From positions 41,824-105,823 of the IMG/VR virus record IMGVR_UViG_3300013286_000725: a DNA stretch of 64,000 bases; one strand, given 5' to 3'. The position numbers were made by a program, and so were the translations under genes. The notes under the pieces were generated by a model. The model searched no databases, was not told where the DNA came from, and was given only the letters and a program-made list of their open reading frames with translations. Below are positions 30,353 to 61,099 of the stretch, piece after piece (position 1 is the first letter of the stretch; each line of letters opens with the position of its first letter). The stretch comes from a virus.

Positions 30353-30359
30353 TATTTAT
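30353..30359 (-). promoter_or_regulatory. Late promoter motif ATAAATA
   Basis: Overlaps stop of giant gene, upstream of 30332. Confidence 0.5.
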
Positions 30360-36300: not shown

Positions 36301-39300
36301 AGAGTGTACCAAACTGATATTCTCCTTGTAATCCAGCAAAACTATTTTGGTCTGATCCCGGAGCACCAACAACTAGGATATCACCCGTTTTAGTTGCGCT
36401 TACAGAATATCCAAATTGATCACCGGCAAATGTTACAGCAGACAATGTCTGCGTATGTGTCCAGGTAGTATTGGAAGAAGTGTATATGTCAACTTGTCCT
36501 TGTGACGAATTATAACCAACACTAGACACTGCTAGCATGTAGGTTGTTGCAGCACCAACAGAGTATTGACTAAAGGCCAATTTAGAACCAAATTGATCAT
36601 TGGCTAAGATATTATTAGGCGGCGTTAGCACAGTGGTAATATTAAAACTTACCGACCCAATTGATATTATAGTTACTGTATTTGTTGTAGGATTACTATA
36701 GGCCAATATATTGCTGTCTGGACTAAATGCAATATCACCTGTTGCAATAGTTGTTATAATATTTGTGTAATTGTCCCAGGTGCCGTCGATGTTCTTACTA
36801 GATAGACTTATTTTATTATTATCGGCAACAGCAATAGTATTACCATTTAATGATACTGCAATTTTTTTACCGTAATTTAATCCTGTACTAGGAGATAGAT
36901 TTGTAACTAAATTTTCATTATAAACGGGGTTGTTTTTATAAACCGTCCATTGACCAAGACCGTTGTTATCTGCCCATAGTAGCTCATTAAGTTTGATAGA
37001 CTTTGGCAATACTGTATTTGCATTGTCAATACTGTCAACCCTGCTCTTAATAAACTTGTATGAAGTAATTTGAGAAAGATCTTTAACTAAAAATTCAGTG
37101 TGTGTAAATCCTTCAACCGTTGCGTTGATATTAATTGTGGCATTTGTTATGGAATCTATTCGATAAAATCTATTCAATGCTTTGGTGTTTTTGATACCAA
37201 TTATGTCGCCTTGACTAACATTAGGTATTCTATTACAGACAATACTTAACACTTCGTTAGAGTAGGTTACATCAAGAATTTTAAAATCATTTCTTGTGAA
37301 TCTATAAACATTCCAATTAGCAGATTCAAATGCACACCATACATAATCTCCATCATTAAAAGCTGTTATATTTTGAGAAAATATATTGTTTTTAAGGCCG
37401 GTTAACGAATCAATACTATAATTGACATCATCGTATCTTACATACCCTGGGGTCCTTAAATACCCATCTTTATTTGATACCGGCCATGGATTATTATTAT
37501 AACCTACAGGTTTAATGTATACATCAGTAGGTATTTGTCTATAGACAAAGTCTAATAATGCAGGATCAACACGATTAACTAACTCAAAAGGCTGAGGATT
37601 TATTTTAAATTCAGTTTCGTCTAAAATAAATTCTATTTCGTCAAATGTATCAACTGCTCCGTACTCTCCAACACGAACTGCCCATTCTTCATTAAAAGTC
37701 AAACTTTCCATGTGATCTGTACTAAGCACATCAAATAACTTGTTTAATACATTCTGAGTACCTTTTTCAATTATCATTCCCTGATAAAATTTGTACTGGC
37801 TTACATCGTCCTGTATGATGTTGGCAAGATACTGCCTCGGTTGGTATCCAATTAAATGTTGAGCAAACTTTTGTTGCTGTACATCAAAATTTCCGCTGTT
37901 TAGATTATAGAAATCTGTAAATTGCTCAACTTTGTAATCCCAATTTGGTAATAATTGAGGTGTTGGTTGTTTAGTTAATTTTACCCATTGTTTGTCATTA
38001 AATTTATTTGCGCCGGGTAATGACACTGTTGCACTGTAGTAGAATGATTTATATTTTACAATGTCGCCTAGATGATAATCGGTGTAAGGGGCCCAGTCAC
38101 TTATTTTAGCTTGGTCAAAAATGAATCCAGGAATATTAAATGAACCGTTCCAATTTTTTGTTATGTATCCAAGCACTTTGACTTTTTCTTGTCTATAACC
38201 TGGTTCAAGGTTATAAATTACATCATTAAACATTGTACGATTATCTAACAACAATACATGTTCTTTTTGTACTAAAAATATTACTGCACCATATATTCCG
38301 TGCTGAGTATTGGATGATGCTAATACAAATCCACTGTCGTTTCGATAGATATTAGTTAGATGTAAATCTAACATTTGTCCATCAACTCTAAAAATATGAT
38401 ATCCGTAAAATGCATCGTTGATATCGTTTACTGTGGTAAATTCAGTAATTAGTGTTAGTTGAGATGCGGCAGGACTTAGGCTCAGCACAGTGCCGCCGGC
38501 CCATCCTTGAGTTGTCCAGAATACGAATTCATTAGCAGCATTAGTCCAATTATTAACTGTGGTTAAATTATTATTAAAATTATCAAATGTAAACCCTTGA
38601 TCTTTTAAATATTCACCGTAACCTAATAAAAAATCTACTACAGACTGAATTGAAGATAACTGAGCACCGTAGCTTAAAACATTCTCGGTGGTCTTATCCC
38701 ATGTATCTCTAATATAAAAATCTACGCCGCCAGTATTTGGCAGTCCTGATAACTTTGCAAACAGGCCGGTATTAAATGCAGTTAAACTAGTGTGTGTAGA
38801 TGTTACTCGATAATATGCACTGCCGTATCGTACTACAGTGCCAACAAGGTAATATTGATTTTCACTCCAAGTAACATAGCTTTCACTAAGGCCGGCAATG
38901 TTGGTTAATTGACCTTCTAGTTGGTAAGAATAATATTTAAAATAGGGATGCTCGTTTGTATAACCTGAAATTTCAAATGATGTTCCGTCTGCACCTTTTG
39001 TGATAATTACACCGCTGTAGATTAGTTTTTGTACAGGACTGCTAGTGTTTAAAAATATATTATAATTTTCTTGCGGGACAAAAACTCCGCCGGTGCTAGC
39101 AGGATTTTTACTGTCTAAAAGTAAATTAAATTTGGGCTTGCTGGTAAAGCCTCCAAGTTTTGATCCTAATTGATTTGTTAAAGATTGTAAATCTGCCATA
39201 TACTGATCTACAAGCGTGGTGGTTTCGCCTGACATATAATCAACAATATAATTGACCAGTCCTGCTGTAAATACTCTGCTAGTACTTAACACAGTGCTAG

Positions 39301-42300
39301 GCAGTTCAATGTCGGCCAATCTAATTCTTAAACCTGTTTTACTGTAAACAAATTGTCCTGCTAGATTTTTTACAATTCTACTACGATCAAAACAAGTGCC
39401 TAGTACTTTGTTTGGTTTTAATAAAAGAGCAGTTTGCATCAGTGCAAATGGATAATATGACGATTTACGCCATGCCGATTCAACTGGGCTGTAATCCCCA
39501 AATACATAATTGCTAGAAATTGCAGTGCTAAAATAACCATCAATAAAATTTGTATCTAATGGATTTAACAGATTGCCTTGTTCGTCAACAGGGAGACCGT
39601 TGTTTAAAATAGTTCGTATGAATCTTGCATCCTGGCGGACTACTTTATTTGGTTCTCTAATAATACCGTTTTGTATGTCTTCCCATAATAATAGGTTGCC
39701 GCTTGTATAAGGTGCCGGCCCATATACTTTAGTCCACCACTTAGGTTCTTCGCTAAACCCTAGCGTTTCCCAAGGAGTAACATTTGGCCTATCAGTATCT
39801 AGAAACCATTTATAAATACCTCTCCAATAAGCAGGAATATTAGTGCCACGAGGACTATAGCTGCTAGCATAATTAAAAGTAAACGGGTCACTTCCGTTAT
39901 AATCAGTTTGCTTAGTATAATCTTGTGCTATTAGTTGTGTCCACTGATAAAAAAAGATGGCTAGGACTTGTTCAAATTCTTTCTTTGAGTAATTTGTAGT
40001 TCTATCATATCCAGGAATAAATTCATAGATATCAAAAATATCAGAGTCGTAGTTGACTTTGATATTATTGTAAATTCTTTTTTCTAATTCTAATAATAGG
40101 TCATCTCTGAAATCGTTAAATGCAATAGTGATACTACCGTCGTGCCCTTGTATAACTTTCCGTGGAGTCCTATAGGTATTGTCAACATAAATCTTAGGCT
40201 CAAATTTAGGATATAATCCTAATTTAGTTGGTGTTGCGGGACAAAAACTGCCATCTGTCGAATGATATTCGTAGGCTTCAATTATTCCGCCTTCGGTCAA
40301 CTCAATATGTAATTCAAAGAAAACATCTGAACCAAAGGTATAATCTTTGCCGTGTAATAACTGCATACCGTTATAATATATATTGACTGTTTGATTGCTC
40401 AACTTAGTGAGATCAAATGTTTCAGTTAACGGATATTTTTTAATTCGTGCATCTAGTACTATATATTCTGATCGGACAGACCCGCTGTATGCAAACATGT
40501 CAGACAGGTAGTAAGATTGAGTTTTAGGAATGTTCGCAGTGACTATTGACAATACATGATCAACATGCTGTTTAACTTCTGTGTCAATACCCGATTCGTT
40601 TGCGGCAATTAAGAACGCTCGTTTAAACTTAGCATAATCATCTTTTGCAGTACTTAATGCTTTAAATACATTTGCTTGTTGATTGCCTAAGTGGTATAGA
40701 CTTAGATTAACTGATCCGCTGTGTTGAACAAACTTTGTTCCGTATGGGGTTAAATCTCCTAAGTCTCTTAGATTACTGTTTCCAGGGTAAGCGCCGACGA
40801 ATCCAGTAATGTTATCAATGATTGAATCAACATGATTAATAACTTCACCTAAGGTAAAATTAATTAAATTATCATTCAAAGGATTGTTTTGTAAATTAAT
40901 TGGAATTTCATAATAACCGTTTTGATTTTTAGAACTAGCACTAAAACATTTTAAAGTGACAACATCTGTTAAAGTAACATCGGTGTTTAGACGAATTAAT
41001 TTTATCGATGCTGTTGTAACAATTGAAAACTTGTTTTGGTCTAGACGATGCCCATTAACATACACACGAATTACTAGATCCGTTAGGGTGTTTACATTAT
41101 TATAAACATCAACAGGAAAATTGTTTATTAAATTACTTTGTTTAAAAATTCTTACCACAGGCTGTATACGATCAACCAGTGATTTTTTCCAACCATTTAC
41201 ATAGTTAAAAGTTATAAGATTTGTGATTAATTTTAAAAATCCAGTATTTGTATTTTTAATACTAACCTGTGTGTTGGTTTTGTATTCAAAACTGTCATTT
41301 AACAAATCAAAAGTAAACGAAATGTCTCCAACATTATTAATATTCTGATACGACAGCGCAAATCCCAGTTCAGTATCAATCAAAGAAGATAAACTAGGTT
41401 TATAAGAAAATAATTTGGTTCCTACAAATTTTGATCCAGGGTATACCGTAGTGTCACCATAGCTGATACCATTAGTGTCTACCACATCAAATAGAGGAAA
41501 TTGATTAACTTTGAGTTTAACAGGCCCTAATTTCCAGGCTGTGCCGTCAAACCAATACATATTTCCTTGGTTTGTAGTACCTTGTCTAACTAATACAGTC
41601 TCATTTAGTTTTGGTGTTGCGTCAGCTTCTTCAACCAAGTTGATTTGTCTTAGTTGACCCGTTTGATCTGAGAGTTGATGAGTCCCTGCTCCTATTTTTA
41701 ACAAATCAACTGGTGCAGTTAATGACTTGTTAAGATATAATTTGATTGCAGTGTTGCTGATAACATATACATAGTAACTCTTACGGTTCAGTAATCCAGA
41801 AATATCACTATTGGCATTATTTAAATAGATAACTTGTGTTCCTGTTACAAATCCGTGCGGTGAGCCGACTGAAAAATTAATTATATTTTTATCTATATCA
41901 ATTTGGCTTGCATCAAATTCAGAAATTTTTGCAGGATCTTGTATGGTTAAAAAATTGACCTTGTAAATTTTATTTTTAACTCTACCGTCAGTGTCTGCAG
42001 AAAATAACACACGCATGCCGTTAGTCAAAGGAACACCGTCAACAAGGTAGCCTAAACTTCCTTCAACACCGCTAAAGGCATCAGTAGTAACAGTATCAAT
42101 TACATCAATGTCTGTCTTACACTGATGCCCAAAATTAAATAATTTTAATCCTGCTTGGAATTCAATAATAGGTCTTTTTGCCCTTGCTGCCTGATCAAAT
42201 TCAGGAACTTGCCCTGTTGCAGATGCAATTGCAGTGATTACAGACTGATGGAACCATCGATTATATCGACTCCACGGATTCTTATCTGGACTGCCTCTAG

Positions 42301-43438
42301 CAATGGTGATATAATCTTTAGTATTGGCTGCGCTAGCAGATGAACTGAACGGTTCCTGATCAAAAGGGGTACTATCAAACAGTGTAGAAGTTTCAGAACT
42401 ATAAGCAGAAACAATCTCTGTATCTGCTTCAGAAATTAATCTTATAGATGACCCAACACCTTCTACATACCAATAACCGTTAGAATATTTTTCAGGTGTT
42501 ACTTTTCCAATGAAATCTAATTTCATTCCATTAGTTAAAGGAGTGCCGTTACCTAATGTATATTTTTGTTTGTTTAAAATATCAGTTTCAACATTTAAAT
42601 AACTGTTGTTGTCAATATCTAGTATATGGAACGCTCCCCCAGTGTCGGCATCTGTTTCACTTACATAAAATAACACACTAGGAGCAGTATGTGGGACTGT
42701 AAAAATAATCTGTCCTTGAGAAATACTATTGTTTATCAGTCCGTCGTTGACAAATCTATTAAGAGTGTCTGCCGACCTGATGGTCTTAATGCTGAACGGA
42801 TTGTTAGGACTTGTTATATTAAATCTATAAGTTTGTCCTCTATACAATGTTATTGTTGGGTTAGGTGTTAGGCCATCATTACTAAAAGTATATGCATAAT
42901 TGCCGCCTTGATCTACTAGATTAACAGTATAGGTACTGTCAATAGCAATCTGTTGCCCTGCAACTATTATAGGGGTTGGGCCAAATGGTAACCAATAGTA
43001 CTGTTGAAAGTTAACAAACTTATCCCAATCAATATGCGGATCCCAACTATAGAACTCTTGCTTATTTAGGCGTTCATGATTAGATACATTGCCGCCAAAG
43101 GTGTCAATGTTGTTAATATGATCAATATAGTCTTTATAGAAAGTAACATTTCCGATATAATCTTTTATAACAGCCGCAGGTTCTAATTGATAATTTTGTC
43201 TCGTTTGATCGCTAGCTGCTAAGAAGACATCGTTGCCATTTGTAGATTTGGCATTTTGTCTACCAATAAATCCGTCAATTTTTTTAACAGTTCCAGGCTG
43301 TGTTAGTTGATTTAATGTTGCCTGTAAAAACTTTTTATTACTGTCAGTTCTATAATATGTAGGAAGTAAGCTGGCAGAAAATCTAGCATTGTTGCCCGGA
43401 ATAGGAAGACCGTATTCGCCTTGGTTGTCAGTTGTCAT
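30356..43438 (-). CDS. Giant baseplate wedge-like structural protein (gp7-like position), 4360 aa
   Basis: Follows gp6-like gene; KPYRTKIR, GGSGY..P.V repeats, FG-GAP-like propeller repeats. Confidence 0.7.
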   Translation of the reverse strand: MTTDNQGEYGLPIPGNNARFSASLLPTYYRTDSNKKFLQATLNQLTQPGTVKKIDGFIGRQNAKSTNGNDVFLAASDQTRQNYQLEPAAVIKDYIGNVTFYKDYIDHINNIDTFGGNVSNHERLNKQEFYSWDPHIDWDKFVNFQQYYWLPFGPTPIIVAGQQIAIDSTYTVNLVDQGGNYAYTFSNDGLTPNPTITLYRGQTYRFNITSPNNPFSIKTIRSADTLNRFVNDGLINNSISQGQIIFTVPHTAPSVLFYVSETDADTGGAFHILDIDNNSYLNVETDILNKQKYTLGNGTPLTNGMKLDFIGKVTPEKYSNGYWYVEGVGSSIRLISEADTEIVSAYSSETSTLFDSTPFDQEPFSSSASAANTKDYITIARGSPDKNPWSRYNRWFHQSVITAIASATGQVPEFDQAARAKRPIIEFQAGLKLFNFGHQCKTDIDVIDTVTTDAFSGVEGSLGYLVDGVPLTNGMRVLFSADTDGRVKNKIYKVNFLTIQDPAKISEFDASQIDIDKNIINFSVGSPHGFVTGTQVIYLNNANSDISGLLNRKSYYVYVISNTAIKLYLNKSLTAPVDLLKIGAGTHQLSDQTGQLRQINLVEEADATPKLNETVLVRQGTTNQGNMYWFDGTAWKLGPVKLKVNQFPLFDVVDTNGISYGDTTVYPGSKFVGTKLFSYKPSLSSLIDTELGFALSYQNINNVGDISFTFDLLNDSFEYKTNTQVSIKNTNTGFLKLITNLITFNYVNGWKKSLVDRIQPVVRIFKQSNLINNFPVDVYNNVNTLTDLVIRVYVNGHRLDQNKFSIVTTASIKLIRLNTDVTLTDVVTLKCFSASSKNQNGYYEIPINLQNNPLNDNLINFTLGEVINHVDSIIDNITGFVGAYPGNSNLRDLGDLTPYGTKFVQHSGSVNLSLYHLGNQQANVFKALSTAKDDYAKFKRAFLIAANESGIDTEVKQHVDHVLSIVTANIPKTQSYYLSDMFAYSGSVRSEYIVLDARIKKYPLTETFDLTKLSNQTVNIYYNGMQLLHGKDYTFGSDVFFELHIELTEGGIIEAYEYHSTDGSFCPATPTKLGLYPKFEPKIYVDNTYRTPRKVIQGHDGSITIAFNDFRDDLLLELEKRIYNNIKVNYDSDIFDIYEFIPGYDRTTNYSKKEFEQVLAIFFYQWTQLIAQDYTKQTDYNGSDPFTFNYASSYSPRGTNIPAYWRGIYKWFLDTDRPNVTPWETLGFSEEPKWWTKVYGPAPYTSGNLLLWEDIQNGIIREPNKVVRQDARFIRTILNNGLPVDEQGNLLNPLDTNFIDGYFSTAISSNYVFGDYSPVESAWRKSSYYPFALMQTALLLKPNKVLGTCFDRSRIVKNLAGQFVYSKTGLRIRLADIELPSTVLSTSRVFTAGLVNYIVDYMSGETTTLVDQYMADLQSLTNQLGSKLGGFTSKPKFNLLLDSKNPASTGGVFVPQENYNIFLNTSSPVQKLIYSGVIITKGADGTSFEISGYTNEHPYFKYYSYQLEGQLTNIAGLSESYVTWSENQYYLVGTVVRYGSAYYRVTSTHTSLTAFNTGLFAKLSGLPNTGGVDFYIRDTWDKTTENVLSYGAQLSSIQSVVDFLLGYGEYLKDQGFTFDNFNNNLTTVNNWTNAANEFVFWTTQGWAGGTVLSLSPAASQLTLITEFTTVNDINDAFYGYHIFRVDGQMLDLHLTNIYRNDSGFVLASSNTQHGIYGAVIFLVQKEHVLLLDNRTMFNDVIYNLEPGYRQEKVKVLGYITKNWNGSFNIPGFIFDQAKISDWAPYTDYHLGDIVKYKSFYYSATVSLPGANKFNDKQWVKLTKQPTPQLLPNWDYKVEQFTDFYNLNSGNFDVQQQKFAQHLIGYQPRQYLANIIQDDVSQYKFYQGMIIEKGTQNVLNKLFDVLSTDHMESLTFNEEWAVRVGEYGAVDTFDEIEFILDETEFKINPQPFELVNRVDPALLDFVYRQIPTDVYIKPVGYNNNPWPVSNKDGYLRTPGYVRYDDVNYSIDSLTGLKNNIFSQNITAFNDGDYVWCAFESANWNVYRFTRNDFKILDVTYSNEVLSIVCNRIPNVSQGDIIGIKNTKALNRFYRIDSITNATININATVEGFTHTEFLVKDLSQITSYKFIKSRVDSIDNANTVLPKSIKLNELLWADNNGLGQWTVYKNNPVYNENLVTNLSPSTGLNYGKKIAVSLNGNTIAVADNNKISLSSKNIDGTWDNYTNIITTIATGDIAFSPDSNILAYSNPTTNTVTIISIGSVSFNITTVLTPPNNILANDQFGSKLAFSQYSVGAATTYMLAVSSVGYNSSQGQVDIYTSSNTTWTHTQTLSAVTFAGDQFGYSVSATKTGDILVVGAPGSDQNSFAGLQGEYQFGTLYTANQVVVNAGNYFKALHTTTDAPPNANWTLLSNQNYPNTGRIFLYQYDGASYSLMSTIGGQQVPTIDDGDRFGESVSLSTTGAYLAVGSPLSSLTSVSDGKVNIFNKLIDSNFTYDLLQTISSPKDEENEHYGAFVSFIDSSNSLVVLSANGNISNDTMFDTGMTTFDSKSLKFIDRLIQSGRVDIFDRYNTKFIYAESFSGIVSNDALPISTRYGMSVAVGNNTVIVGAPQEEDKVVVNSGLVYSYTKNAGSKTWSVYHKQIDRINLDKIKKVFLYNKKSNQIVTYLDIVEPIQGHIPGVADQEIRYKTYYDPAVYSYTDKTVSGANIDNGANWLADKVGVLWWDLTRAKFIENVDGDIVYRSTNWNKLYNSASIDVYEWVSSRLKPSQWDARADTEAGLAVNISGKSLYGDAVYSTSQRYDSVSEVLITTYYFWVRNKQIVPNALGRSLSAAEVSSLITDPTAYGYSCLALTGTNSFNLVNCKKYLKSTDIALHVEYWTVDNQELNLHTEWKIISEDIDTELPAQIETKWFHSLSGRDANDETVPNLSLPVKQRYGVQFRPRQGMFINRLEALKQFITRTNTVLAKVLISDSHDITSLSKYESAPSYITGKWDITISLGAELQYIGTSNLSQASATATVVKGVITEVSFTNKGFGYINAPFVTVTGTGNGAVIKTTLDNLGRINGYTILDGGEGYNTLTTSLSIRPYSVLVTSDAFVFDKWAILQWNAGTKSWARVKSQSYDVTKFWKYIDWYATGYNQFTKIDYIVDNTYFLSSLTSNIGDVVKVKNIGTGGWILLQKYSNTVTIDYTQNYTVVGRYNGTIEFSSSLYDYANTVLGFDDQLYDGATYDDFASIELNIILDTIKHKLLINELRLEYLKLFFASLRYVMYEQSFVDWAFKTSFVKARHNVGMLKQKVTYNNDNLKNFEDYVNEVKPYRTKIREYVSAYDSIDYAKHAVSDFDLLPVIDSTQQIHPIAVSVSDQGIVEYDSAVINTYPWKMWLENVGFKINSIKIVDGGSGYISEPVVKILDGYGQNAVAKAYIAGGKVNRIDLVNQGTGYLKAPQIVLAGGLGIRGVAARAVAIIESEVVRTSKLAIKFDRISKSYYSSTLLHTDIFTGTGSRLQFSLTWSPKTEITIYQRVTVDGIEVLKNEYSLSNTSTTANGTTKYFGILKLDSAPAKGAKIVVDYEKDFNHLSATDRINFYYNPAAGEIAKDLSQLMTGVDYAGVNISGLDFHIAGGWDNDAGWASDQWDSYTNNRASDSSITPDADSYDTSLDGGRFIGTVLSTAIGVNPDDINVDGDGFVTPMTSHAPEEVVPGQILDSLAIKVYTRPSSGNSTIFFKNYLADGVGATYSIAQKLLLNHSIIVKVGTTIIEAGDYQIDMNTNLVTLVNVPTANSVVSIISFGPSSTNLLDIDYFVSDGTTNEFVTRAPWLEDNLNATVLVDGVIVNYVLFKTDNTYASNNRTAIRFGTIPTNGSIVTYIINVNDSTSSIVKSQSIITNGTDYTYSLDNLTSSVLSTPGLLPYETNVLVRAGSTVLKPPTAFYHILADNQLEYTIPTYQFAPYNLAVTDIRVFVNGIKLNFGADFTVNSDTISVVLVPSSYINNAKLTIVVDANDDYRINDNGTITFKNLHAQDTAIDVTTFYNHSILDIKRTTDTMIPATTLVPDTSEYFEFTAKTGGKFKLADKVVAEDRVWVIKNNQLLTLNVDYIILSDYKTIQLTSTLVITDVIQVIAFNGIPIKENSFGFMQFKDILNRTHYKRLNAASSTTLREAVKQTSADIAVVDGSVLTTPNPTLNLPGVVFINGERIEYFYKLGNVISQLRRGTLGTGVPTIHAVNSLVQDVSSGETVPYTDSELVETFIADGTGTTVTPTFNIDNINEIEVFVGGYRLKKSAYTVYSETLGYPYSPAGDIILPPEFTVNNSIVSLRTPPAANTKIILVKKQGQLWGEMDQSLRNSNSIVANFVKKSTTIWPR

Positions 43439-53855: not shown

Positions 53856-54617
53856 ATGTTTATCTATAAAATTATCGTTAATAATAATGTTTATATAGGA
53901 CTTGATACTAAACCGTCCTATAAGTTATCACGATGGAAAAAGCATTGTGATGAGGCAACTACAAGATGTAAAACAAAATTACATAAGGCTATGAATATGT
54001 ATGGCATAAAGAATTGTGTAGTTGAAATATTAAAAGATAACTTTAAGTCTATTGGAGAACTTGCGTTATCGGAAATTGATTACATTAAGCAATACGATTC
54101 TTATAAAAACGGACTTAACTCTACTCCAGGTGGAGACGGTTTAGGAAAATACGATTTAACTTTATTATCGCTTGCAGATATAGACAAAATCAAATCTGCA
54201 TTAGGTGAGCATTTTAGTAATTATAATAAAAATATCAAATGGGCAGGAACTACTGAAGTTGATAGAAAATTATTAACTAAACATTTACATACTGACGAAA
54301 TTTATCAAAAGAAATCGGATACTCTTAAGAAATTTTACAAAGCAAATCCAGATATTGCCAAAACAAAAGCAGTAGGGATTAGAAAATGGCAGTTGCAAAA
54401 TCCAGAAGAAATGAAGAAACGCAATCAGATTAATTCGATCAAAGGTGCCGCGGCTGTTTCGAAGAAACTAAAGGTTGAACTGGAAGACGGTAATGTGTTA
54501 TACTATTCAAGTAAAAGTGAATTCCATAGATTAACAAATCAATGGGCAAACACCATTATTAAAAAAACACAAGAAGGTGTTTTCTACAATGGTTATAAAA
54601 TATGGGAAGAAAAATGA
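53856..54617 (+). mobile_element. Free-standing GIY-YIG (Seg-like) homing endonuclease gene
   Basis: FIYKI...VYIG, RWKKH, E..YI..YDS..NGLN.TPGG; AT-rich; sits between gp55 and gp47. Confidence 0.85.
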
Positions 54618-54856
54618 ACAACTACAATATGTCTATTCACACAAATCCCGATGCAAGAGCCTGGGCTAAATTCTTTACTGAAAAGTATAAAGTATGGTCG
54701 GAAGATGGTGTAGAGTCTGACTCTGAGGCCTTAATGACTGCGTGGTTTGCCAATGCTATGATGGCGATGCATGATCATTTAGTATTGAAAGGTAATCCAA
54801 TCAATGGAGATCATGCCCAATACCTTATAGATAAAGAAAACGGAGTTAAACAATAA
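54614..54856 (+). CDS. Hypothetical protein
   Basis: ATGA overlap with endonuclease stop; AWFANAMMAMHD. Confidence 0.7.
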   Translation: MNNYNMSIHTNPDARAWAKFFTEKYKVWSEDGVESDSEALMTAWFANAMMAMHDHLVLKGNPINGDHAQYLIDKENGVKQ

Positions 54857-55869
54857 TGGCAAACTTATTTAAAAAAGTTGCGTGCATGACCGATATTCAT
54901 TTCGGTCTCAAGAGCAATTCATCAGTACACAACCAGGACTGTGAGGATTTTGTAGACTGGTACATTGCCAAAGCCAAGGAGGAAGGCTGTGATACAGGTA
55001 TCTTTCAAGGAGATTGGCATCATAATCGCAATAGTCTTAATATCACTACTATGGACTATAGCCTTAGGGCCTTGGAAAAGCTCGGAGCGGCGTTTGATCA
55101 ATTTTATTTCTTTCCTGGCAATCATGATTTATATTACAAAGACAAACGGGATATTCACTCTGTAGAATTTGGCAAGTACATCCCAGGAATTACTGTTGTT
55201 CATGAGCCTACTACCATTGGCGATGTTACGCTGTGCCCGTGGTTAGTAGGGGAAGAATGGCGGGCTGTGGGTAAGAAGGGCGGCAAGTATATTTTTGGTC
55301 ACTTTGAATTGCCCAGCTTCTTTATGAACGCCATGGTGCAGATGCCAGACCACGGTGAGATCACTCTTAATAGTTTCAAAAACTATGAGTTAGGATTCAG
55401 CGGGCACTTCCACAAACGCCAGCAACAAAAGAACATGATCTATATTGGCAATGCTTTCCCGCACAACTATGCAGACACATGGGACGACGAACGAGGCATG
55501 ATGGTATTAGAGTGGGGCGGGCAACCAGAATACCATACTTGGCCTAATCAACCTACTTTTAGAACACTCAAACTCAGTAGACTTATAGACGAAGCTGATA
55601 GTATAATTAAACCTAATCAGTATCTACGAGTTAACTTGGACATTGATATCAGTTATGAAGAAGCAACTTTTATCAAAGAAAAGTTTATGAAAGACTATCC
55701 AATTAGAGAACTAACCCTAATCCCTGAAAAGAAAGAAATTGATATCAATACCAATATTGATATTCAAAGTTTTGAAAGTGTAGATCAAATTGTCAGCAAT
55801 CAATTGGTCAGTATTGAAAGCGAGCAATTTGACAAGACTGTGCTGTTGAGCATTTATAATAACCTATGA
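54856..55869 (+). CDS. gp47: Mre11/SbcD-like recombination nuclease
   Basis: TDIHFG, GDWHH, GNHD, GHFE, SGHFH. Confidence 0.95.
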   Translation: MANLFKKVACMTDIHFGLKSNSSVHNQDCEDFVDWYIAKAKEEGCDTGIFQGDWHHNRNSLNITTMDYSLRALEKLGAAFDQFYFFPGNHDLYYKDKRDIHSVEFGKYIPGITVVHEPTTIGDVTLCPWLVGEEWRAVGKKGGKYIFGHFELPSFFMNAMVQMPDHGEITLNSFKNYELGFSGHFHKRQQQKNMIYIGNAFPHNYADTWDDERGMMVLEWGGQPEYHTWPNQPTFRTLKLSRLIDEADSIIKPNQYLRVNLDIDISYEEATFIKEKFMKDYPIRELTLIPEKKEIDINTNIDIQSFESVDQIVSNQLVSIESEQFDKTVLLSIYNNL

Positions 55870-57644
55870 TAAAAATTAAAGATCTGTCAGTTAAGAATTT
55901 TATGAGTGTGGGTAACCAGACTCAAGCAGTTGATTTTGACAAAGAACAGTTGACTCTTGTGCTGGGCGAGAACTTAGATCAGGGCGGTGACGACAGTGGC
56001 TCAAGAAACGGTACTGGCAAAACTACCATTGTGAATGCACTTAGTTTTGCACTGTACGGAACTGCGCTTACCAACATTAAAAAAGACAATTTGATCAACA
56101 AAACTAACGGTAAGAACATGTTGATCACATTGAGTTTTGAGAAAGACGGTGTTAGTTATCGTGTTGAGCGAGGCCGTAAACCTAATATTCTCAAGTTCTA
56201 CATCAATGATCAGGAACAGGAAACCGCAGAGTCCGACGATGCGCAAGGTGACATGCGTGAAACACAAAAGGACATTGATGACTTGTTGGGCATGAGTCAC
56301 GACATGTTCAAGCACATTGTTGCGCTTAACACTTATACTGAACCGTTTTTGAGTCTTAAGGCTAATGAGCAAAGAGAAATCATTGAACAGTTGTTGGGTA
56401 TAACTCTGCTGAGTGAGAAGGCAGATTTACTTAAAGAACAAGTTAGAGTTAGCAAAGAAAAGATTTTGCAAGAAACTGCTGACATCGAAGCGGCAAAAAA
56501 GTCTAACGAGCGCATTGAGCAAAGTATTACCAATTTAGAAACTAAACTCAAAGCCTGGAATACTCAACAAGAAACAGACGGAGTTAAAATTGCCAAAAGC
56601 ATTGCTGAACTTCAAAGTGTTGATATTGAAAAAGAAATTGCACAGCATGCACTGGTCAAAGAGTATGATGAATTTGCGGCCACTATCAAGAGTCTTAATA
56701 AAGAAAAAGCCACGCTGGAAACCGCAGTGGGTCAAGCAGATAAAAGTGTAACCAAGTATACCAAAGAAGTAGAGCAGTTAAAAAATAAGACTTGTCCGGC
56801 ATGTGAACAAGAGTTACACAGTCACAAGCATGAAGACATGACAGCTACCGCTGAAAAAAATCTAGAAGACGCAGTGGCCTATATAGAAACTGTCAGCAAC
56901 AACTATGCAGGTGTGTTGCAAGAGTTAGAAATAATTGGTGACATAAATGGTAGGCCTAGAACTTACTACGACACAGTAGAAGAAGCACTCAAGCATCAAA
57001 ACAATCTAGCAACATTAGAACAGGCATTGATTAATAGGCAAGAAGAATCTAATCCTTATCAAGAGCAAATTGATGAGCTACGCAATAGTGCTATACAAGA
57101 AATTTCGTGGGATAATGTTAATATATTATCCAGCTTGAGAGACCATCAAGAGTTCTTGCTTAAATTGTTGACCAGTAAAGATAGTTTTATTCGAAAGAAG
57201 ATCATAGATCAAAACCTTGCCTATCTTAACAATCGTCTAACATTTTATCTTGACAAGATGGGATTGCCGCACAGCGTTAATTTTCAAAATGATTTGACTG
57301 TTGAGATCACACAGCTGGGTCAGGACTTGGACTTTGATAACTTGAGTCGCGGTGAGCGCAATCGTTTGATTCTAGGATTGAGCTGGGCATTCCGTGATGT
57401 GTGGGAAAGTTTATATCAACAGATTAACTTGTTGTTTATTGACGAGCTGATCGACAACGGTCTTGATGCCGCAGGAGTCGAGAACGCATTAGGTGTTCTC
57501 AAGAAAATGGGCCGTGAACGCAATAAAAATATCTATTTGATCAGTCACAAAGACGAATTGATCGGTCGTGTTAACAATGTTCTTAAGGTTATCAAAGAAA
57601 ACGGTTATACCAGCTATGCCAATGATTTGGAGATTGCAGACTAA
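55866..57644 (+). CDS. gp46: Rad50/SbcC-like ATPase
   Basis: NGTGKTT, coiled coil with CPAC zinc hook, LSRGE, FIDE, ISH. Confidence 0.95.
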   Translation: MIKIKDLSVKNFMSVGNQTQAVDFDKEQLTLVLGENLDQGGDDSGSRNGTGKTTIVNALSFALYGTALTNIKKDNLINKTNGKNMLITLSFEKDGVSYRVERGRKPNILKFYINDQEQETAESDDAQGDMRETQKDIDDLLGMSHDMFKHIVALNTYTEPFLSLKANEQREIIEQLLGITLLSEKADLLKEQVRVSKEKILQETADIEAAKKSNERIEQSITNLETKLKAWNTQQETDGVKIAKSIAELQSVDIEKEIAQHALVKEYDEFAATIKSLNKEKATLETAVGQADKSVTKYTKEVEQLKNKTCPACEQELHSHKHEDMTATAEKNLEDAVAYIETVSNNYAGVLQELEIIGDINGRPRTYYDTVEEALKHQNNLATLEQALINRQEESNPYQEQIDELRNSAIQEISWDNVNILSSLRDHQEFLLKLLTSKDSFIRKKIIDQNLAYLNNRLTFYLDKMGLPHSVNFQNDLTVEITQLGQDLDFDNLSRGERNRLILGLSWAFRDVWESLYQQINLLFIDELIDNGLDAAGVENALGVLKKMGRERNKNIYLISHKDELIGRVNNVLKVIKENGYTSYANDLEIAD

Positions 57645-57898
57645 TGAGCGGACATGATGGTTTAATGTCAGCTTTCCAGGTTTACTTTAAGGCAAACCAA
57701 CGATGGGAAAGCACACAAACACATGTCTCGGCCATTGCTCTTAGACGAGCACTTAGAGATTTGAGAGATCGCGCAAGCGAATACAGAGTAGAGATACAGA
57801 CAGTACGAGAAAAAAAACCAAAAGTTAAATCACCAAAATGGCGAGAAGAACAGGCAAGTCAGAACGAAAAGGCTCAAGGCAACGATGATGCTAACTAA
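57644..57898 (+). CDS. Small basic helical protein (weak Hc1 histone-like resemblance)
   Basis: AIALRRALRDLRDRASEYRVEIQ. Confidence 0.55.
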   Translation: MSGHDGLMSAFQVYFKANQRWESTQTHVSAIALRRALRDLRDRASEYRVEIQTVREKKPKVKSPKWREEQASQNEKAQGNDDAN

Positions 57899-57901
57899 AG
57901 C

Positions 57902-58327
57902 ATGTCATGGACTTATCAGGATACAATTATTGAAACATTACCCGAAGAATGTGTCGGGTTTGTATATCTGATAACCAATGTCATCTCTGGCAGAAAATAT
58001 ATAGGCAAGAAATTAGCAAAATTCTCAAAGACGACCTACAAGACTGTAAAGTTGAAGAACGGCACAAAGAAAAAAAAGAAAATTCGAAGCAAAATAGACA
58101 GCGATTGGCGTGAGTACTACGGAAGTAGTCCTAACTTGACCGCAGATATAGATGCACTAGGCAAAGAAAATTTCACAAGAGAAATATTATATTACTGCAA
58201 CTCAAAATCAGAATGTTCATACATCGAGGCCAGAGAACAATTCACCCGCAAAGTTCTAGAATCAAAAGACTATTACAACGGCCAGATATCTGTCCGTGTA
58301 CATGGTTCCCACATATTAAAATCTTAG
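57902..58327 (+). CDS. Small GIY-YIG nuclease (catalytic domain only)
   Basis: GFVYLITN...KYIGKK, WREYYGS, FTREIL, YIEAREQ, YYNG; Lys-rich insertion KTVKLKNGTKKKKKIRSK. Confidence 0.88.
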   Translation: MSWTYQDTIIETLPEECVGFVYLITNVISGRKYIGKKLAKFSKTTYKTVKLKNGTKKKKKIRSKIDSDWREYYGSSPNLTADIDALGKENFTREILYYCNSKSECSYIEAREQFTRKVLESKDYYNGQISVRVHGSHILKS

Positions 58328-58800
58328 GCTAATCATACAGTTAGGGCTCGCACCGGCTAAAATCGGGTGCCGAACAGTTGAAACCTGGACTCATAGTCGC
58401 AGGGATCCGAAGTCTTGCCGCTGTAAGCAAGCACTCAATCAGTATCCTTAACAGGACCACGATCGCTTAAAACCTGCGATTTGATTGTTTGAACAGAATA
58501 CATAATAGGTAAAAAGAAGGGAGAAAAACCCTGGATTAATATATGCGACTGCGTGTGTATATTAATTGCCGTTGAATCTAAGACGGAGCTCGTGGTACTG
58601 GTCAACCGCCACTGTAACTGCTCTAACGCTAGTGTGACATTGTGCAACTCAGATAATGTTATATTTTTTAGCCCGGAAACGGGCTAAGTGTGACTGAACA
58701 ATCTAGATAATACTTAAATGCTTCGCATTAATTGTGTTCTAAGAAACAGAAAACATGTTCGAGCGCGAGCGAAGAACTGAAGAACGCAAGTTCTTCTTTA
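58328..58800 (+). ncRNA. Putative large structured non-coding RNA (family unassigned)
   Basis: ~470-nt gap in a gene-dense genome with more than 10 hairpins, GAAA and GCAA tetraloops, and G-U pairs valid only on + strand. Confidence 0.6.
58779..58800 (+). terminator. 3' hairpin, possible terminator of the structured RNA
   Basis: GAAGAAC-GCAA-GTTCTTC followed by TTT. Confidence 0.45.
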
Positions 58801-58807
58801 ATAAATA
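58801..58807 (+). promoter_or_regulatory. Late promoter ATAAATA, 5 nt before ATG
   Basis: ATAAATA-CACAT-ATG(58813). Confidence 0.6.
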
Positions 58808-58812
58808 CACAT

Positions 58813-60057
58813 ATGAAAGTTTATGATATCATCTCTGAAGAAAAACAACAACTAAATGAATTCGTACCTCTTTTGATTGGCGGCCTTACGATTGGCGGTA
58901 TATTGACCGCCATAAACTTAGGTATAAGTGCTTGGGGTGCTTATGATATCTATCAGTTTGTAAAAAAGTATAATGACGATCCTGACAAAATTACAGACGA
59001 TGAGTGGGGCGATCTTTGGATAGATGCCGCACTATTATTTGCACCTGCAATAGGTAAATTTGGTAGAGCTGCATTTGTCAAAGTGCTTCCTAAATCTTGG
59101 ATTATCAAAGGTGGCGCTTGGTTCAAACGATCAGTATTAAAAATATATGCCAAGTCAGCTACCAAAGGGCTTGCTGGCGCAGATCGAATCAAAGCATTAA
59201 AGGCTATTGCTAAAGAAAGTAGATCAGTTGCATCTGCGCAAAAATCTATCAATGCATTAGGCACTGCATGGAAAATAATACAAACTTTAGGTATTAGTGT
59301 AGTTGGATACAACTACTGGACTGAACTATCTGCGCTGGATGAAGAATTTAGAAAATTCAAAGGTGGAGATAAGACCACTAAGATATTTGGTAATTCTACA
59401 GACAGTGATGCGTATGAGGTCTATCTTGACCTACATGCAAAGATACTTGGAGAGTTGACTATTGCTGTTGGTGGCTTTGTAGGCGGAATGGCTGTGGGCA
59501 AGACTATTGGCTTCCTGGGTAACTTTATAGGGAAGACACCTGTAGTTGGTTGGGCTGTCAAAATACCTTTTGATATAGCTTCCGGACTAGCTAAAATGAT
59601 GGGCAACACTAGTGTTTATATTCCCCTGTTCATGGCCACTGATGCTGGCAAAAAGTTCATGGAAAGCGGAATTATAACTTTGATCACCAAAGGTATCGGA
59701 CATATGGAACAAGGTGCTATAGAATTGCTATCTAAAGCATTAGAAGAAATAGGTGTGTCAAAGGGTGTAACTGATAAAATACCTGGAAAAACAGAAGAGC
59801 CGCCTGCTAGTGTGCAGGCTAACGATGCCGAATCTGACAAATATATCAAAACTGGTCAAGGTAATCCTGCACTTAGAAAACGCACTGTTGGCAAGCAAAT
59901 CTATATTGGCAATGTACTAGTAACCGACGACGATGGCTATCTATTACCCAGCGTTGGAAGTCGAATTCAAGATATACAAGACAAGGCAAAGATAGTAGGA
60001 GAGCCGGATCCTACAGCGGGTATACCTAAGAAGCCCGGTGTTGATTACACCAACTGA
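58813..60057 (+). CDS. Probable capsid-packaged protein with hydrophobic helices
   Basis: Start MKVYDIISE at 58813 (track start 58732 lies in the RNA region); several Gly-rich hydrophobic segments. Confidence 0.65.
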   Translation: MKVYDIISEEKQQLNEFVPLLIGGLTIGGILTAINLGISAWGAYDIYQFVKKYNDDPDKITDDEWGDLWIDAALLFAPAIGKFGRAAFVKVLPKSWIIKGGAWFKRSVLKIYAKSATKGLAGADRIKALKAIAKESRSVASAQKSINALGTAWKIIQTLGISVVGYNYWTELSALDEEFRKFKGGDKTTKIFGNSTDSDAYEVYLDLHAKILGELTIAVGGFVGGMAVGKTIGFLGNFIGKTPVVGWAVKIPFDIASGLAKMMGNTSVYIPLFMATDAGKKFMESGIITLITKGIGHMEQGAIELLSKALEEIGVSKGVTDKIPGKTEEPPASVQANDAESDKYIKTGQGNPALRKRTVGKQIYIGNVLVTDDDGYLLPSVGSRIQDIQDKAKIVGEPDPTAGIPKKPGVDYTN

Positions 60058-60059
60058 TT

Positions 60060-60293
60060 TTAAATCCAGGGCAACTTAGTTGCTTTGGTTGTTTCAATAT
60101 TTTCCGTAATAATATCATTCATGATTTTACGATCTTCAAAAGAGTAAACATGAAATAGGTCATGGCTACTAACACCACCTCGCATATACCAACTGATTCT
60201 AAAAATTTCGTCTTTTAGAGCTTTGGTATGTGTTTCATACCCTTCAATAAACTTTTCTATCTCAGAGTTCGGCAGTGTTTGTAGCCTTATTCG
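60060..60293 (-). CDS. -1 frameshift extension (gp51-like / lambda T-like segment) of the upstream gene; not in ORF track
   Basis: 77 open codons RIRLQTLPNS...SWYMRGGVS...KLPWI* starting at the T TTT TTC heptamer. Confidence 0.7.
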   Translation of the reverse strand, partial: RIRLQTLPNSEIEKFIEGYETHTKALKDEIFRISWYMRGGVSSHDLFHVYSFEDRKIMNDIITENIETTKATKLPWI

Positions 60294-61099
60294 AAAAAAT
60301 TTGATTGATCCATCGTGATAGTAGTTTTATCTTGATGATGGCAATCGGAGCATTCTACTTGTAGATCAGGCATGGCCCAGACATCTTTATTTGCCTCAAG
60401 AAAGTCTTTGATCTGTTTATATTGATCTCTGCTCATGTGACTTAACCATTCAAGTATATGTTCTTTTTCAGAAACTTTTCCATCTGGCATGTCTACAGAT
60501 TCAATACTGGCCAATAATACTTTTAATTGTATATCAGCTAATTTAGCATAGATTTCGTCTATGTATCCCTGTTTAGTTTCTTCAGTAACATTGGCCAATT
60601 GTGCTAGCATACGCTGTAGAGTAAAATTTTCTACATTAAATCCAGTAACTTCGTTGTAGTTTAATGGTCTAATATTGATGGTTAAATCGCCTAACGGTAG
60701 TCTACTGTTAAACACTTTGTCTTTGTAATTTTCAATTACAGCACCTAAATCCACATCAAAATTGTCTTCGTGCCCGCAATTAACACAGGTGTTGACAATG
60801 GTCATTTTTTCACCAAAAGTAGCCATTCTGATAGCAACTAGCAAGGTATCAGTATCTAAACTAGGAACAACTGTGGCGTCTTTAATATACGGGCAACAGG
60901 ATTCAATTAACTTGATTGATGCTTCGCCGTTAAACAGGGCGTCAGGCGTTTTCATAATGACCTCGTCCATACCAGTCATGGCAAAAATAGGCACATTACT
61001 GCTGTCGCCCTGTAAGGTTCCTTCGGGATAGAACAATCCCTTGCTGGGAAGACTGATATAAATTTTAGGTTGTCTAAAATATTTTTGTAATGGATTCAT
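60287..61099 (-). CDS. gp26-like baseplate hub/tail assembly chaperone
   Basis: NPLQKYFRQPKIYISLPSKG, MTGMDE, two CxxC motifs, ends DQSNFFE. Confidence 0.75.
   Translation of the reverse strand: MNPLQKYFRQPKIYISLPSKGLFYPEGTLQGDSSNVPIFAMTGMDEVIMKTPDALFNGEASIKLIESCCPYIKDATVVPSLDTDTLLVAIRMATFGEKMTIVNTCVNCGHEDNFDVDLGAVIENYKDKVFNSRLPLGDLTINIRPLNYNEVTGFNVENFTLQRMLAQLANVTEETKQGYIDEIYAKLADIQLKVLLASIESVDMPDGKVSEKEHILEWLSHMSRDQYKQIKDFLEANKDVWAMPDLQVECSDCHHQDKTTITMDQSNFFE

What the first reader, a model, noticed from the sequence alone, without database searches (positions are those of the whole stretch)
57891..58800. Small GIY-YIG nuclease followed immediately by a ~470-nt highly structured RNA-like element: candidate nuclease-RNA system
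Seen: the largest non-coding gap in the window starts at the nuclease stop codon and is tiled with stems. These include GCACC/GGTGC (58350-58370), CCTG/CAGG (58384-58403), CTTGC/GCAAG (58414-58431), and a three-way junction closed by CAATCA/TGATTG (58436-58487) around TCCT/AGGA and ATCGC/GCGAT. Further on are ATTAATATATGC/GTGTATATTAAT (58535-58566), CCGT/ACGG, nested GAGC/GCTC + GTGG/CCAC (58586-58623), TGACATTGT/ATAATGTTA (58635-58661), TTAGCCCG-GAAA-CGGGCTAA (58668-58687) and GAAGAAC-GCAA-GTTCTTC (58779-58796). GNRA loops and G-U pairs work on the + strand, which favours RNA folding over DNA cruciforms. I recognise no tRNA, tmRNA, RNase P or group I/II intron hallmarks. The 141-aa nuclease lacks the C-terminal DNA-binding modules of homing endonucleases (compare 53856-54617) but has a very basic insertion. 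Inference: one transcript from CTAACTA (57891-57897) carries nuclease plus ncRNA, possibly forming a ribonucleoprotein (RNA-scaffolded or RNA-guided nuclease, by analogy with OMEGA nuclease-ncRNA pairs).
Basis: partly seen in the sequence, partly recalled or inferred. Interest (0 to 1): 0.85.

Follow-up and report, generated by a model that had tools for sequence, protein, structure and literature searches.

The report
Twin-box Polynucleobacter-1 phage RNA
The gene-free stretch behind a small DNA-cutting enzyme gene of this uncultured giant T4-like lake phage encodes a real, knotted non-coding RNA of about 450 bases; its first third is the unexplained Rfam motif Polynucleobacter-1, the rest is uncatalogued and shows one fast-changing 7-letter word twice, and the enzyme looks like a fixed neighbour, not a proven partner.

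Summary
Window 58345-58796 (+) is one large structured RNA directly behind a 141-aa GIY-YIG domain-only nuclease. Its 5' third (58345-58490) is Rfam RF01718, Polynucleobacter-1 (87.5 bits, cut-off 37), so it is not a wholly unknown family.

The remaining ~300 nt match nothing in Rfam but are conserved and covary. They hold a three-way junction, an H-type pseudoknot, two repeated units around a GAAA hairpin, a GNRA-capped hairpin and a terminal hairpin.

Other phages keep the 3' core but carry unrelated 5' modules. A 7-mer (AGATAAT here, at 58651 and 58705) is identical in both units in 161/161 phage loci, across 10 variants, and no partner within the RNA was found.

Among close nuclease relatives, 72/72 loci with enough downstream sequence carry the RNA. 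Yet distant nuclease relatives lack it. Polynucleobacter chromosomes carry the whole RNA without the nuclease, always upstream of a catalytic-domain-only tyrosine recombinase.

An RNA-guided nuclease is therefore unsupported, and the function remains unknown. This scan found the same "twin-box" RNA earlier on other phage DNA; I reached it independently.

The parts
57902..58327 (+). 141-aa GIY-YIG nuclease, catalytic domain only, with a basic beta-hairpin insertion (residues about 40-66)
   Evidence: Pfam PF19835 SegE_GIY-YIG, E 1.2e-32, full profile. PHROG 447. AF2 model pLDDT 88.6. Best fold match is the I-TevI catalytic domain 1ln0, Z 8.7, rmsd 2.7 over 82 residues. Y22, Y33, G35, R70, E94 and N126 are invariant or nearly so in the relatives.
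58345..58490 (+). Domain I: Polynucleobacter-1 RNA (Rfam RF01718). Three hairpins plus a three-way junction.
   Evidence: cmscan 87.5 bits against a gathering score of 37, E 3e-17, model 1-141. Covariation.
58508..58570 (+). Domain II: three-way junction closed by GGT/GCC (58508-10 with 58568-70). It holds hairpin AGGG/CCCT (58518-32) and a 14-bp hairpin (58534-67).
   Evidence: The same architecture, with different stem sequences, appears in the roughly 40 class-1 relatives folded.
58571..58623 (+). Domain III: H-type pseudoknot. PK is 58571-75 with 58602-06; Pb is 58592-96 with 58608-12; Pc is 58586-89 with 58620-23.
   Evidence: PK: 105/116 distinct contexts fully paired, 8 pair combinations. 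Pb and Pc.
58631..58661 (+). Unit A (GTGTGAC...AACTC + box). Box A is AGATAAT at 58651-58657.
   Evidence: Box A is identical to box B in 161/161 phage loci across 10 variants. No covarying partner within the region from about 330 nt upstream of the pseudoknot motif to 140 nt past unit B.
58668..58687 (+). Hairpin Pe, 8 bp with a GAAA loop, between the two units
   Evidence: 5 of 8 pairs change on both sides; 94.7% of cells pair.
58688..58715 (+). Unit B (GTGTGAC...AATCT + box). Box B is AGATAAT at 58705-58711.
   Evidence: This is the only such twin signature in the 105.8-kb record.
58717..58729 (+). Optional small hairpin AATGC-TTC-GCATT, present in class-1 relatives only
   Evidence: Stem varies as ATGC/GCAT, CTGC/GCAG, GTGC/GCAC and CGTC/GACG in the alignment.
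58757..58777 (+). Hairpin Pf: outer stem GTTC/GAAC, GA/GAA internal loop, inner GC/GC pair stack, GNRA tetraloop. The conserved motif is GAGCGnnAGCGAA.
   Evidence: 43/44 relatives have an outer stem of at least 4 bp, with 30 distinct stems. The inner pairs covary GC to AU. The same motif is in the bacterial copies.
58779..58796 (+). Terminal hairpin Pg (GAAGAAC-GCAA-GTTCTTC), the likely 3' end or terminator
   Evidence: 44/44 relatives have a hairpin of at least 6 bp, with 23 distinct 5' arms.
58813..60057 (+). Downstream 414-aa ORF. It is not part of the element and is variable between relatives.
   Evidence: No Pfam, PHROG or NCBIfam hit. No DNA similarity in relatives. In class-2 loci the next gene is convergent.

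Best explanation
Window 58345-58796 (+) is a full-length member of a large, modular, multiply pseudoknotted non-coding RNA family. The Rfam motif Polynucleobacter-1 is only one of several exchangeable 5' modules of this family.

Shown:
- The RNA is real.
- It is read on the + strand.
- It ends in a conserved terminal hairpin.
- Its universal core is two repeated units, each presenting the same 7-nt word, around a hairpin.

Inferred:
- It is a self-sufficient, trans-acting RNA carried on mobile DNA (giant lake phages, and recombinase-bearing cassettes in Polynucleobacter chromosomes).
- In phages it is made either as the 3' extension of the gp47-gp46-nuclease transcript or from a promoter inside the nuclease gene's 3' end.
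- It works by offering two identical, unpaired 7-nt words on a rigid scaffold to one and the same outside reader.
- The GIY-YIG nuclease is a fixed neighbour in this phage clade and not an obligate partner.
For: - RF01718 match.
- Strong covariation in domain I, in the 3' core, in the pseudoknot and in the terminal hairpins.
- G-U pairs and the fold z-score favour the + strand.
- Loci without RF01718 carry unrelated 5' modules but the same core. None of these modules is in Rfam.
- The twin 7-mers are identical in 161/161 phage loci over 10 variants. Class 3 has ACATGAA twice. Eight of 11 bacterial copies have identical boxes and the other three differ by 1-2 nt.
- No covarying partner was found within the sequence around the RNA.
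- The RNA occurs without the nuclease in Polynucleobacter chromosomes.
- The nuclease occurs without the RNA in distant relatives.
- Nearly identical nucleases go with different modules and boxes.
- In class-2 loci the next gene is convergent, so the RNA is not a 5' leader.
Against:
- The outside reader of the boxes is unidentified, so 'trans-acting' is an inference.
- In the phage clade the RNA is always next to the nuclease (72/72).
- In bacteria it is always next to another catalytic-domain-only DNA enzyme (12/12).
- Together these two patterns could mean a real enzyme partnership.
- All phage loci share the gp46...gp26 synteny, so linkage and common descent cannot be separated.
Confidence: 0.55

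Rival explanations
1. Nuclease-RNA ribonucleoprotein. The RNA scaffolds or guides the domain-only GIY-YIG nuclease, supplying the DNA recognition that the protein lacks.
For: - 72/72 adjacency on the same strand, with the RNA starting 13-60 nt after the stop codon in most loci.
- 143/161 RNA loci have a full nuclease gene upstream.
- The protein lacks any DNA-binding domain and carries a basic beta-hairpin.
- The linkage persists down to 41-56% nuclease identity.
Against: - The RNA exists without the nuclease in bacteria.
- The nuclease family is far wider than the RNA: 530 phage records, and those examined have no long gap and no model hit.
- Nucleases 98.6% identical pair with different 5' modules and boxes.
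- ORFs are inserted between the gene and the RNA in 15/143 loci.
- No guide-target relation was found.
- The linkage is confounded by conserved synteny.
Confidence: 0.12
2. DNA-level element: an RNA-primed replication origin or protein-binding repeats. The two units would be iterons or nuclease sites, and the transcript would act as a primer, as in ColE1 RNA II or T4 origin transcripts. The bacterial cassettes would be satellites that copy the phage element.
For: - The position lies between the recombination genes gp46/47 and the structural genes.
- Direct repeats that evolve in concert are typical of iterons.
- The same element sits in integrase-bearing chromosomal cassettes.
Against: - More than ten helices and a pseudoknot are kept by compensatory changes and by G-U pairs that work only on the + strand.
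- There are only two repeats.
- The unit occurs nowhere else in the 105.8-kb record.
- No tyrosine recombinase is found in complete relatives of the phage.
Confidence: 0.1
3. Cis-regulatory leader or riboswitch-like 5' UTR of the downstream gene. Weinberg et al. rated the motif as probably cis-regulatory.
For: In class-1 loci a + strand gene follows. A late-promoter-like ATAAATA often lies between the terminal hairpin and its start codon.
Against: - The downstream genes are unrelated between loci.
- In class-2 and class-3 loci the next gene is convergent.
- The RNA ends in a terminator-like hairpin before the gene.
Confidence: 0.04

Closest known systems
Polynucleobacter-1 RNA motif (Rfam RF01718; Weinberg et al. 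2010, Genome Biol 11:R31, PMC2864571)
   Same: 58345-58490 is a full-length, high-scoring member. The 2010 supplement already says that most copies lie downstream of one gene family (GOS11034, possibly like PSSM2_218 of cyanophage P-SSM2), and that the function is unknown.
   Different: The Rfam model covers 141 nt. Here the RNA is about 450 nt. The motif is an exchangeable 5' module, and the conserved core (pseudoknot, twin boxes, GNRA hairpin, terminal hairpin) is not catalogued. The 2010 paper found no copy in a sequenced purified phage and did not recognise the gene as GIY-YIG. The only paper in the searched library that names the motif is the 2010 one.
Large ornate bacterial and phage RNAs of unknown function (GOLLD, ROOL, OLE, HEARO)
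   Same: Several hundred nucleotides, multi-domain, pseudoknotted, found on phages or mobile DNA, discovered by comparative genomics, biochemical role open. This comparison rests on my own knowledge.
   Different: No Rfam model other than RF01718 reaches threshold. None of those RNAs is known to me to carry two concertedly evolving identical words.
OMEGA RNAs of TnpB/IscB and IS110 bridge RNAs (RNA-guided nucleases and recombinases)
   Same: A structured RNA is encoded directly beside a compact DNA enzyme on mobile DNA. Short segments vary between lineages inside a conserved scaffold.
   Different: The enzyme families differ (GIY-YIG or tyrosine recombinase, not RuvC/HNH or DEDD). No target complementary to the boxes was found. 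RNA and nuclease occur apart. The two variable segments are identical to each other, not two different guides.
I-TevI and the T4 Seg homing endonucleases; T4 endonuclease II (DenA)
   Same: GIY-YIG catalytic fold: I-TevI domain Z 8.7, EndoII Z 5.5. A small phage nuclease. In the Melnitz and BUCT-ZZ01 phages the homologue follows the nrd genes, as denA does in T4 (my recollection).
   Different: No C-terminal DNA-binding domain, unlike I-TevI and the Seg proteins. No detectable sequence similarity to EndoII. The gene is constant in this clade, unlike the patchy spread expected of a homing gene.

Membership tests
Rfam RF01718 Polynucleobacter-1 | Covariance-model score at or above the curated gathering score over the whole model | tested here: met
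   87.5 bits against 37, model positions 1-141 of 141.
Rfam RF01718 Polynucleobacter-1 | The consensus helices are kept by compensatory changes | tested here: met
   22 of 29 pairs change on both sides. 93.7% of cells pair against 76.6% in shuffles and about 35% when slid.
Rfam RF01718 Polynucleobacter-1 | Lies downstream of a GOS11034-family gene (Weinberg 2010 supplement) | tested here: inconclusive
   It lies downstream of the GIY-YIG gene in the phage loci. I could not check that GOS11034 is this family. In Polynucleobacter chromosomes no such gene precedes it.
GIY-YIG nuclease superfamily (Pfam PF19835 SegE_GIY-YIG) | Profile match above cut-off, conserved GIY/YIG tyrosines, Arg, Glu and Asn, and the GIY-YIG fold | tested here: met
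   E 1.2e-32. Invariant Y22, Y33, G35, R93?/R70, E94 and N126. I-TevI catalytic domain Z 8.7.
Free-standing homing endonuclease (Seg / I-TevI type) | A DNA-binding domain joined to the catalytic domain | tested here: not met
   141 aa, and the Pfam domain spans residues 3-129. The model shows one domain plus a beta-hairpin.
OMEGA-type RNA-guided nuclease system | A TnpB/IscB-type (RuvC, HNH) nuclease | tested here: not met
   The only domain found is GIY-YIG.
OMEGA-type RNA-guided nuclease system | Obligate co-occurrence of the RNA and its nuclease | tested here: not met
   The RNA occurs without the nuclease in 12 bacterial loci. The nuclease occurs without the RNA in distant relatives.
OMEGA-type RNA-guided nuclease system | A variable guide segment complementary to a DNA target | tested here: inconclusive
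   The 7-nt boxes vary between lineages. No complementary site stood out nearby or genome-wide. Seven nucleotides are too few for a blind search.
IS110 bridge-RNA system | A DEDD/Tnp IS110 recombinase beside the RNA | tested here: not met
   The neighbours are GIY-YIG (phage) or a PF00589 tyrosine recombinase (bacteria).
Rfam RF01745 manA RNA | Score at or above the gathering score | tested here: not met
   21 bits against 55.2 at 58670-58817. The stretch is explained by Pe, unit B, Pf and Pg.
Group I / group II intron, tRNA, tmRNA, RNase P | An Rfam or ARAGORN match | tested here: not met
   No match at E up to 10 in 57800-58900 other than RF01718 and manA. No tRNA or tmRNA in the window.
Iteron-type or transcript-primed replication origin | Repeated protein-binding sites, an unwinding element, and mapped initiation | not testable with these tools
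   Two concertedly evolving direct repeats exist. Initiation cannot be mapped here.

The most novel reading that the evidence does not exclude
The twin-box RNA is the DNA-recognition subunit for catalytic-domain-only DNA enzymes. In phages it would serve the GIY-YIG nuclease. In Polynucleobacter cassettes it would serve the 188-211-aa tyrosine recombinase that lacks its core-binding domain. The two identical 7-nt boxes would read the same 7-bp core in two DNA partners. Seven base pairs is the usual length of a tyrosine-recombinase crossover region, and that region must be identical in both recombining sites. This would be an RNA-programmed tyrosine recombinase or GIY-YIG system, a class not described.
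Probability: 0.07. Interest if true: 0.95.

Novelty: new variant of a known kind. Interest (0 to 1): 0.6.

Why it matters
An orphan Rfam motif from 2010 turns out to be one interchangeable head of a much larger RNA. That RNA is abundant in uncultured giant lake and marine T4-like phages and is also present in bacterial chromosomes.

Its core shows a rare signature: two copies of a 7-nt word that change often between lineages but always together. That signature calls for a specific outside reader.

In both settings the RNA neighbours a DNA enzyme stripped to its catalytic domain. So the small chance that it programmes DNA cutting or recombination would, if true, add a new class of RNA-directed DNA enzymes. 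If not, it is still a new large structured RNA class that phages share with their likely hosts.

Tried and rejected
- blastn of 57600-59000 against 50,697 phage records: no match.
- manA RNA: 21 bits, below the cut-off.
- Introns, tRNA, tmRNA, RNase P: no match.
- CCGT/ACGG stem: not conserved; replaced by the pseudoknot.
- Cis partner of the boxes. Mutual information over the region from about 330 nt upstream of the pseudoknot motif to 140 nt past unit B finds only the twin column. Exact reverse complements within 1.5 kb show no positional peak. A G-U-tolerant peak about 150-200 nt upstream of unit A (35 of 134 loci) probably reflects the conserved 3' tail of domain I (TGTTT), as it does in the window. 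That tail does not covary with the boxes.
- Extra copies of the unit or the 7-mer in the 105.8-kb record: none beyond chance.
- AYYY+box counts in two Polynucleobacter genomes: G088 equals its control (11 against 11); G075 has twice its control (32 against 15), which I put down to the A/T-rich word. No target site stood out in either.
- Box copies at the cassette edges in bacteria: none found.
- The phage 3' core model R2 does not hit the bacterial copies. Their likeness rests on architecture and shared motifs.
- Tyrosine recombinase in the phage record and in complete relatives: none. The boxes therefore cannot be sites of a phage-encoded tyrosine recombinase.
- Sigma-70-like promoters and terminators: not above chance.
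- Foldseek against the PDB: no match at E 0.001 or better; the structural match came from VIA-align.
- phmmer of the nuclease against PDB sequences: nothing significant.
- RNAalifold on raw MAFFT alignments of the variable-length hairpins failed, so the stems were counted directly.
- Complex prediction was not used, because it does not take RNA.
- The genome-contig scan for the nuclease returned mostly metagenome-assembled contigs of scattered taxonomy, probably mis-binned phage DNA.

Full report
**Setting.** The window is bases 41824-105823 of a 105.8-kb IMG/VR virus record that CheckV rates 30% complete. Relatives reach 345-347 kb, one with terminal repeats, so this is an uncultured giant T4-like phage. 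Around the finding lie, in order:
- a gp47-like phosphoesterase (54856-55869);
- a gp46-like SMC/AAA protein (55866-57644);
- an 84-aa ORF;
- the 141-aa nuclease (57902-58327);
- the gene-free stretch;
- a 414-aa ORF with no family (ATG at 58813);
- a gp26-like baseplate hub on the minus strand (60287-61099).

**The nuclease and its relatives.** The protein is a SegE-type GIY-YIG domain with nothing else attached (PF19835, E 1e-32).
- An AlphaFold model (pLDDT 88.6) shows the catalytic fold plus a long basic beta-hairpin.
- The best structural matches are the I-TevI catalytic domain (Z 8.7), a GIY-YIG restriction enzyme (Z 7.1), the UvrC N-terminal domain (Z 5.7) and T4 EndoII (Z 5.5).
- More than 585 viral contigs encode relatives at 72-89% identity.
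- 530 cultured-phage records encode relatives below 60% identity, mostly cyanophages. These are often mislabelled 'NAD synthetase'.

**Domain I in relatives.** Of 50 records with the nuclease, 29 hold RF01718. Each has one copy, starting about 13-60 nt after the nuclease stop codon on the same strand. My own model R1 finds it in 45 of 80 loci. Covariation is strong: 93.7% of cells pair against 76.6% in shuffles and about 35% when the partners are slid, and 183 cells change on both sides against 54.

**The rest of the gap is part of the same RNA.** BLAST shows that 58491-58812 is conserved, while the downstream ORF is not. Alignments and folds reveal the following parts:
- a three-way junction (58508-58570);
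- an H-type pseudoknot, in which 58571-75 pairs with the loop of hairpin 58592-96/58608-12 (105 of 116 contexts fully paired, eight pair combinations);
- helix 58586-89/58620-23;
- two repeated units around the GAAA hairpin 58668-87;
- a small optional hairpin;
- a hairpin whose 'loop' GAGCGnnAGCGAA is itself a GC/GC stack capped by a GNRA tetraloop (58757-77);
- a terminal hairpin (58779-96).

A model of the 3' core (R2) hits 76 loci. On that alignment 91.5% of cells pair against 78.6% in shuffles, with 220 double changes against 73. The two terminal hairpins are kept with 30 and 23 different stem sequences respectively. Invariant G-U pairs sit on the + strand only.

**Modularity.** Loci that lack RF01718 are not empty. 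They carry an unrelated, conserved 5' module of about 215 nt (class 2) or another one (class 3), followed by the same units and terminal hairpins. None of these modules matches Rfam. L048 and L054 have nucleases 98.6% identical and the same neighbouring genes, but different 5' modules. The head of the RNA is therefore swapped as a cassette.

**Twin boxes.** Each unit ends in AACTC or AATCT followed by seven variable bases.
- In 161 of 161 phage loci the seven bases are the same in both units, over ten variants. In the window they are AGATAAT, at 58651 and 58705.
- Class 3 and two marine contigs have ACATGAA twice.
- Among the 80 loci chosen only by the nuclease, 72 show the signature. The other 8 end less than 480 nt after the gene.
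- Upstream and reverse-strand controls give 0 hits, and the whole 105.8-kb record gives one.
- Mutual information finds no other column that follows the boxes.
- No complementary word is placed consistently nearby.

The boxes are therefore unpaired within the RNA and are read from outside by one and the same reader. I found this before consulting earlier notes of this scan. Those notes describe the same 'twin-box' RNA on other phage genomes.

**Is the nuclease a partner?**
- For: adjacency without exception in this clade. In the reverse test, 143 of 161 RNA loci have a full nuclease gene upstream, 128 of them ending 200-350 nt upstream of the pseudoknot motif.
- Against: every locus, even those with nucleases at 41-56% identity, lies in the same gp46...gp26 block, so linkage may be plain descent.
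- Against: 15 loci have an ORF inserted between gene and RNA.
- Against: relatives at 46% identity or less, and cultured phages such as Melnitz and BUCT-ZZ01, have no long gap and no model hit.
- Against: the bacterial copies below lack the nuclease altogether.

**Bacterial copies.**
- RF01718 is present in 13 of 121 Polynucleobacter genomes searched, including closed chromosomes, in one or two copies. A few further Burkholderiales genomes also have it.
- In all 12 loci examined there is no GIY-YIG gene.
- The RNA lies between a divergent DUF6641 gene and, 0.3-1.3 kb downstream, a 188-211-aa tyrosine recombinase. The recombinase aligns only to the catalytic half of XerC/D.
- The bacterial RNA is about 520 nt and has the same plan: domain I, middle domains, unit A (GAACTC + box), a hairpin, unit B (GAATCT + box), an A-rich linker, the GAGCGnnAGCGAA hairpin and a terminal hairpin.
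- Its boxes differ between genomes (AGCGAAA, ATCAAAA, AGAGAAA, AACAAAA, GGAGAAA and others). They match within a copy in 8 of 11 loci.
- Two copies in one genome resemble each other mainly over the RNA.
- Complete phage relatives encode no tyrosine recombinase.

**Reading.** The RNA can exist without the nuclease, and the nuclease without the RNA, so an obligate nuclease-RNA particle is unlikely. The best-supported view is an autonomous, mobile, large structured RNA whose twin boxes engage a common outside reader.

A 5'-leader role is excluded by the loci where the next gene is convergent. An origin-type DNA element cannot be ruled out, but it does not explain the strand-specific RNA covariation.

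That both settings place the RNA beside a DNA enzyme reduced to its catalytic domain is striking. It keeps a small probability alive for an RNA-programmed enzyme.

**Known or new?** The 2010 supplement already states that the motif lies downstream of one gene family and is found in Polynucleobacter and in environmental samples. No later paper in the searched library names it. The full-length RNA, its modular heads, the pseudoknotted core, the twin boxes and the recombinase context are not in Rfam or in the papers I could search.

Noticed in passing
L239-L250 (Polynucleobacter-type chromosomes), about 6 kb either side of the RNA: A recurring cassette: DUF6641 gene (minus strand), the roughly 520-nt twin-box RNA (plus strand), zero or one variable ORF, then a 188-211-aa tyrosine recombinase with only the catalytic domain. 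Two diverged copies occur in some genomes. The neighbours on the left vary (a patatin-like phospholipase, an FMN reductase).
   Followed up: partly
Pfam finds no family for it at E below 0.001.
   Followed up: partly
L013, L020 and related loci, between gp46 and the nuclease: Many relatives carry radical-SAM/SPASM genes inserted between gp46 and the nuclease gene. The window instead has an 84-aa ORF there.
   Followed up: no
window 30356-43438 (-): A single 4360-aa ORF in the structural block, flanked by other very large ORFs of 1975 and 1136 aa.
   Followed up: no
window 1790, 25080, 31754, 34256 (- strand) and one further site outside the window: The 10-mer TTTAGATAAT occurs five times on the minus strand of the record. 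It could be a promoter-like word for minus-strand genes.
   Followed up: no
L218, L220, L221 (marine metagenome-assembled contigs): Marine relatives with the nuclease at 54-59% identity carry a divergent RNA at the same place. The R2 hits are weak (E 0.003-0.014). L218 and L221 have the ACATGAA twin boxes; none was detected in L220.
   Followed up: partly
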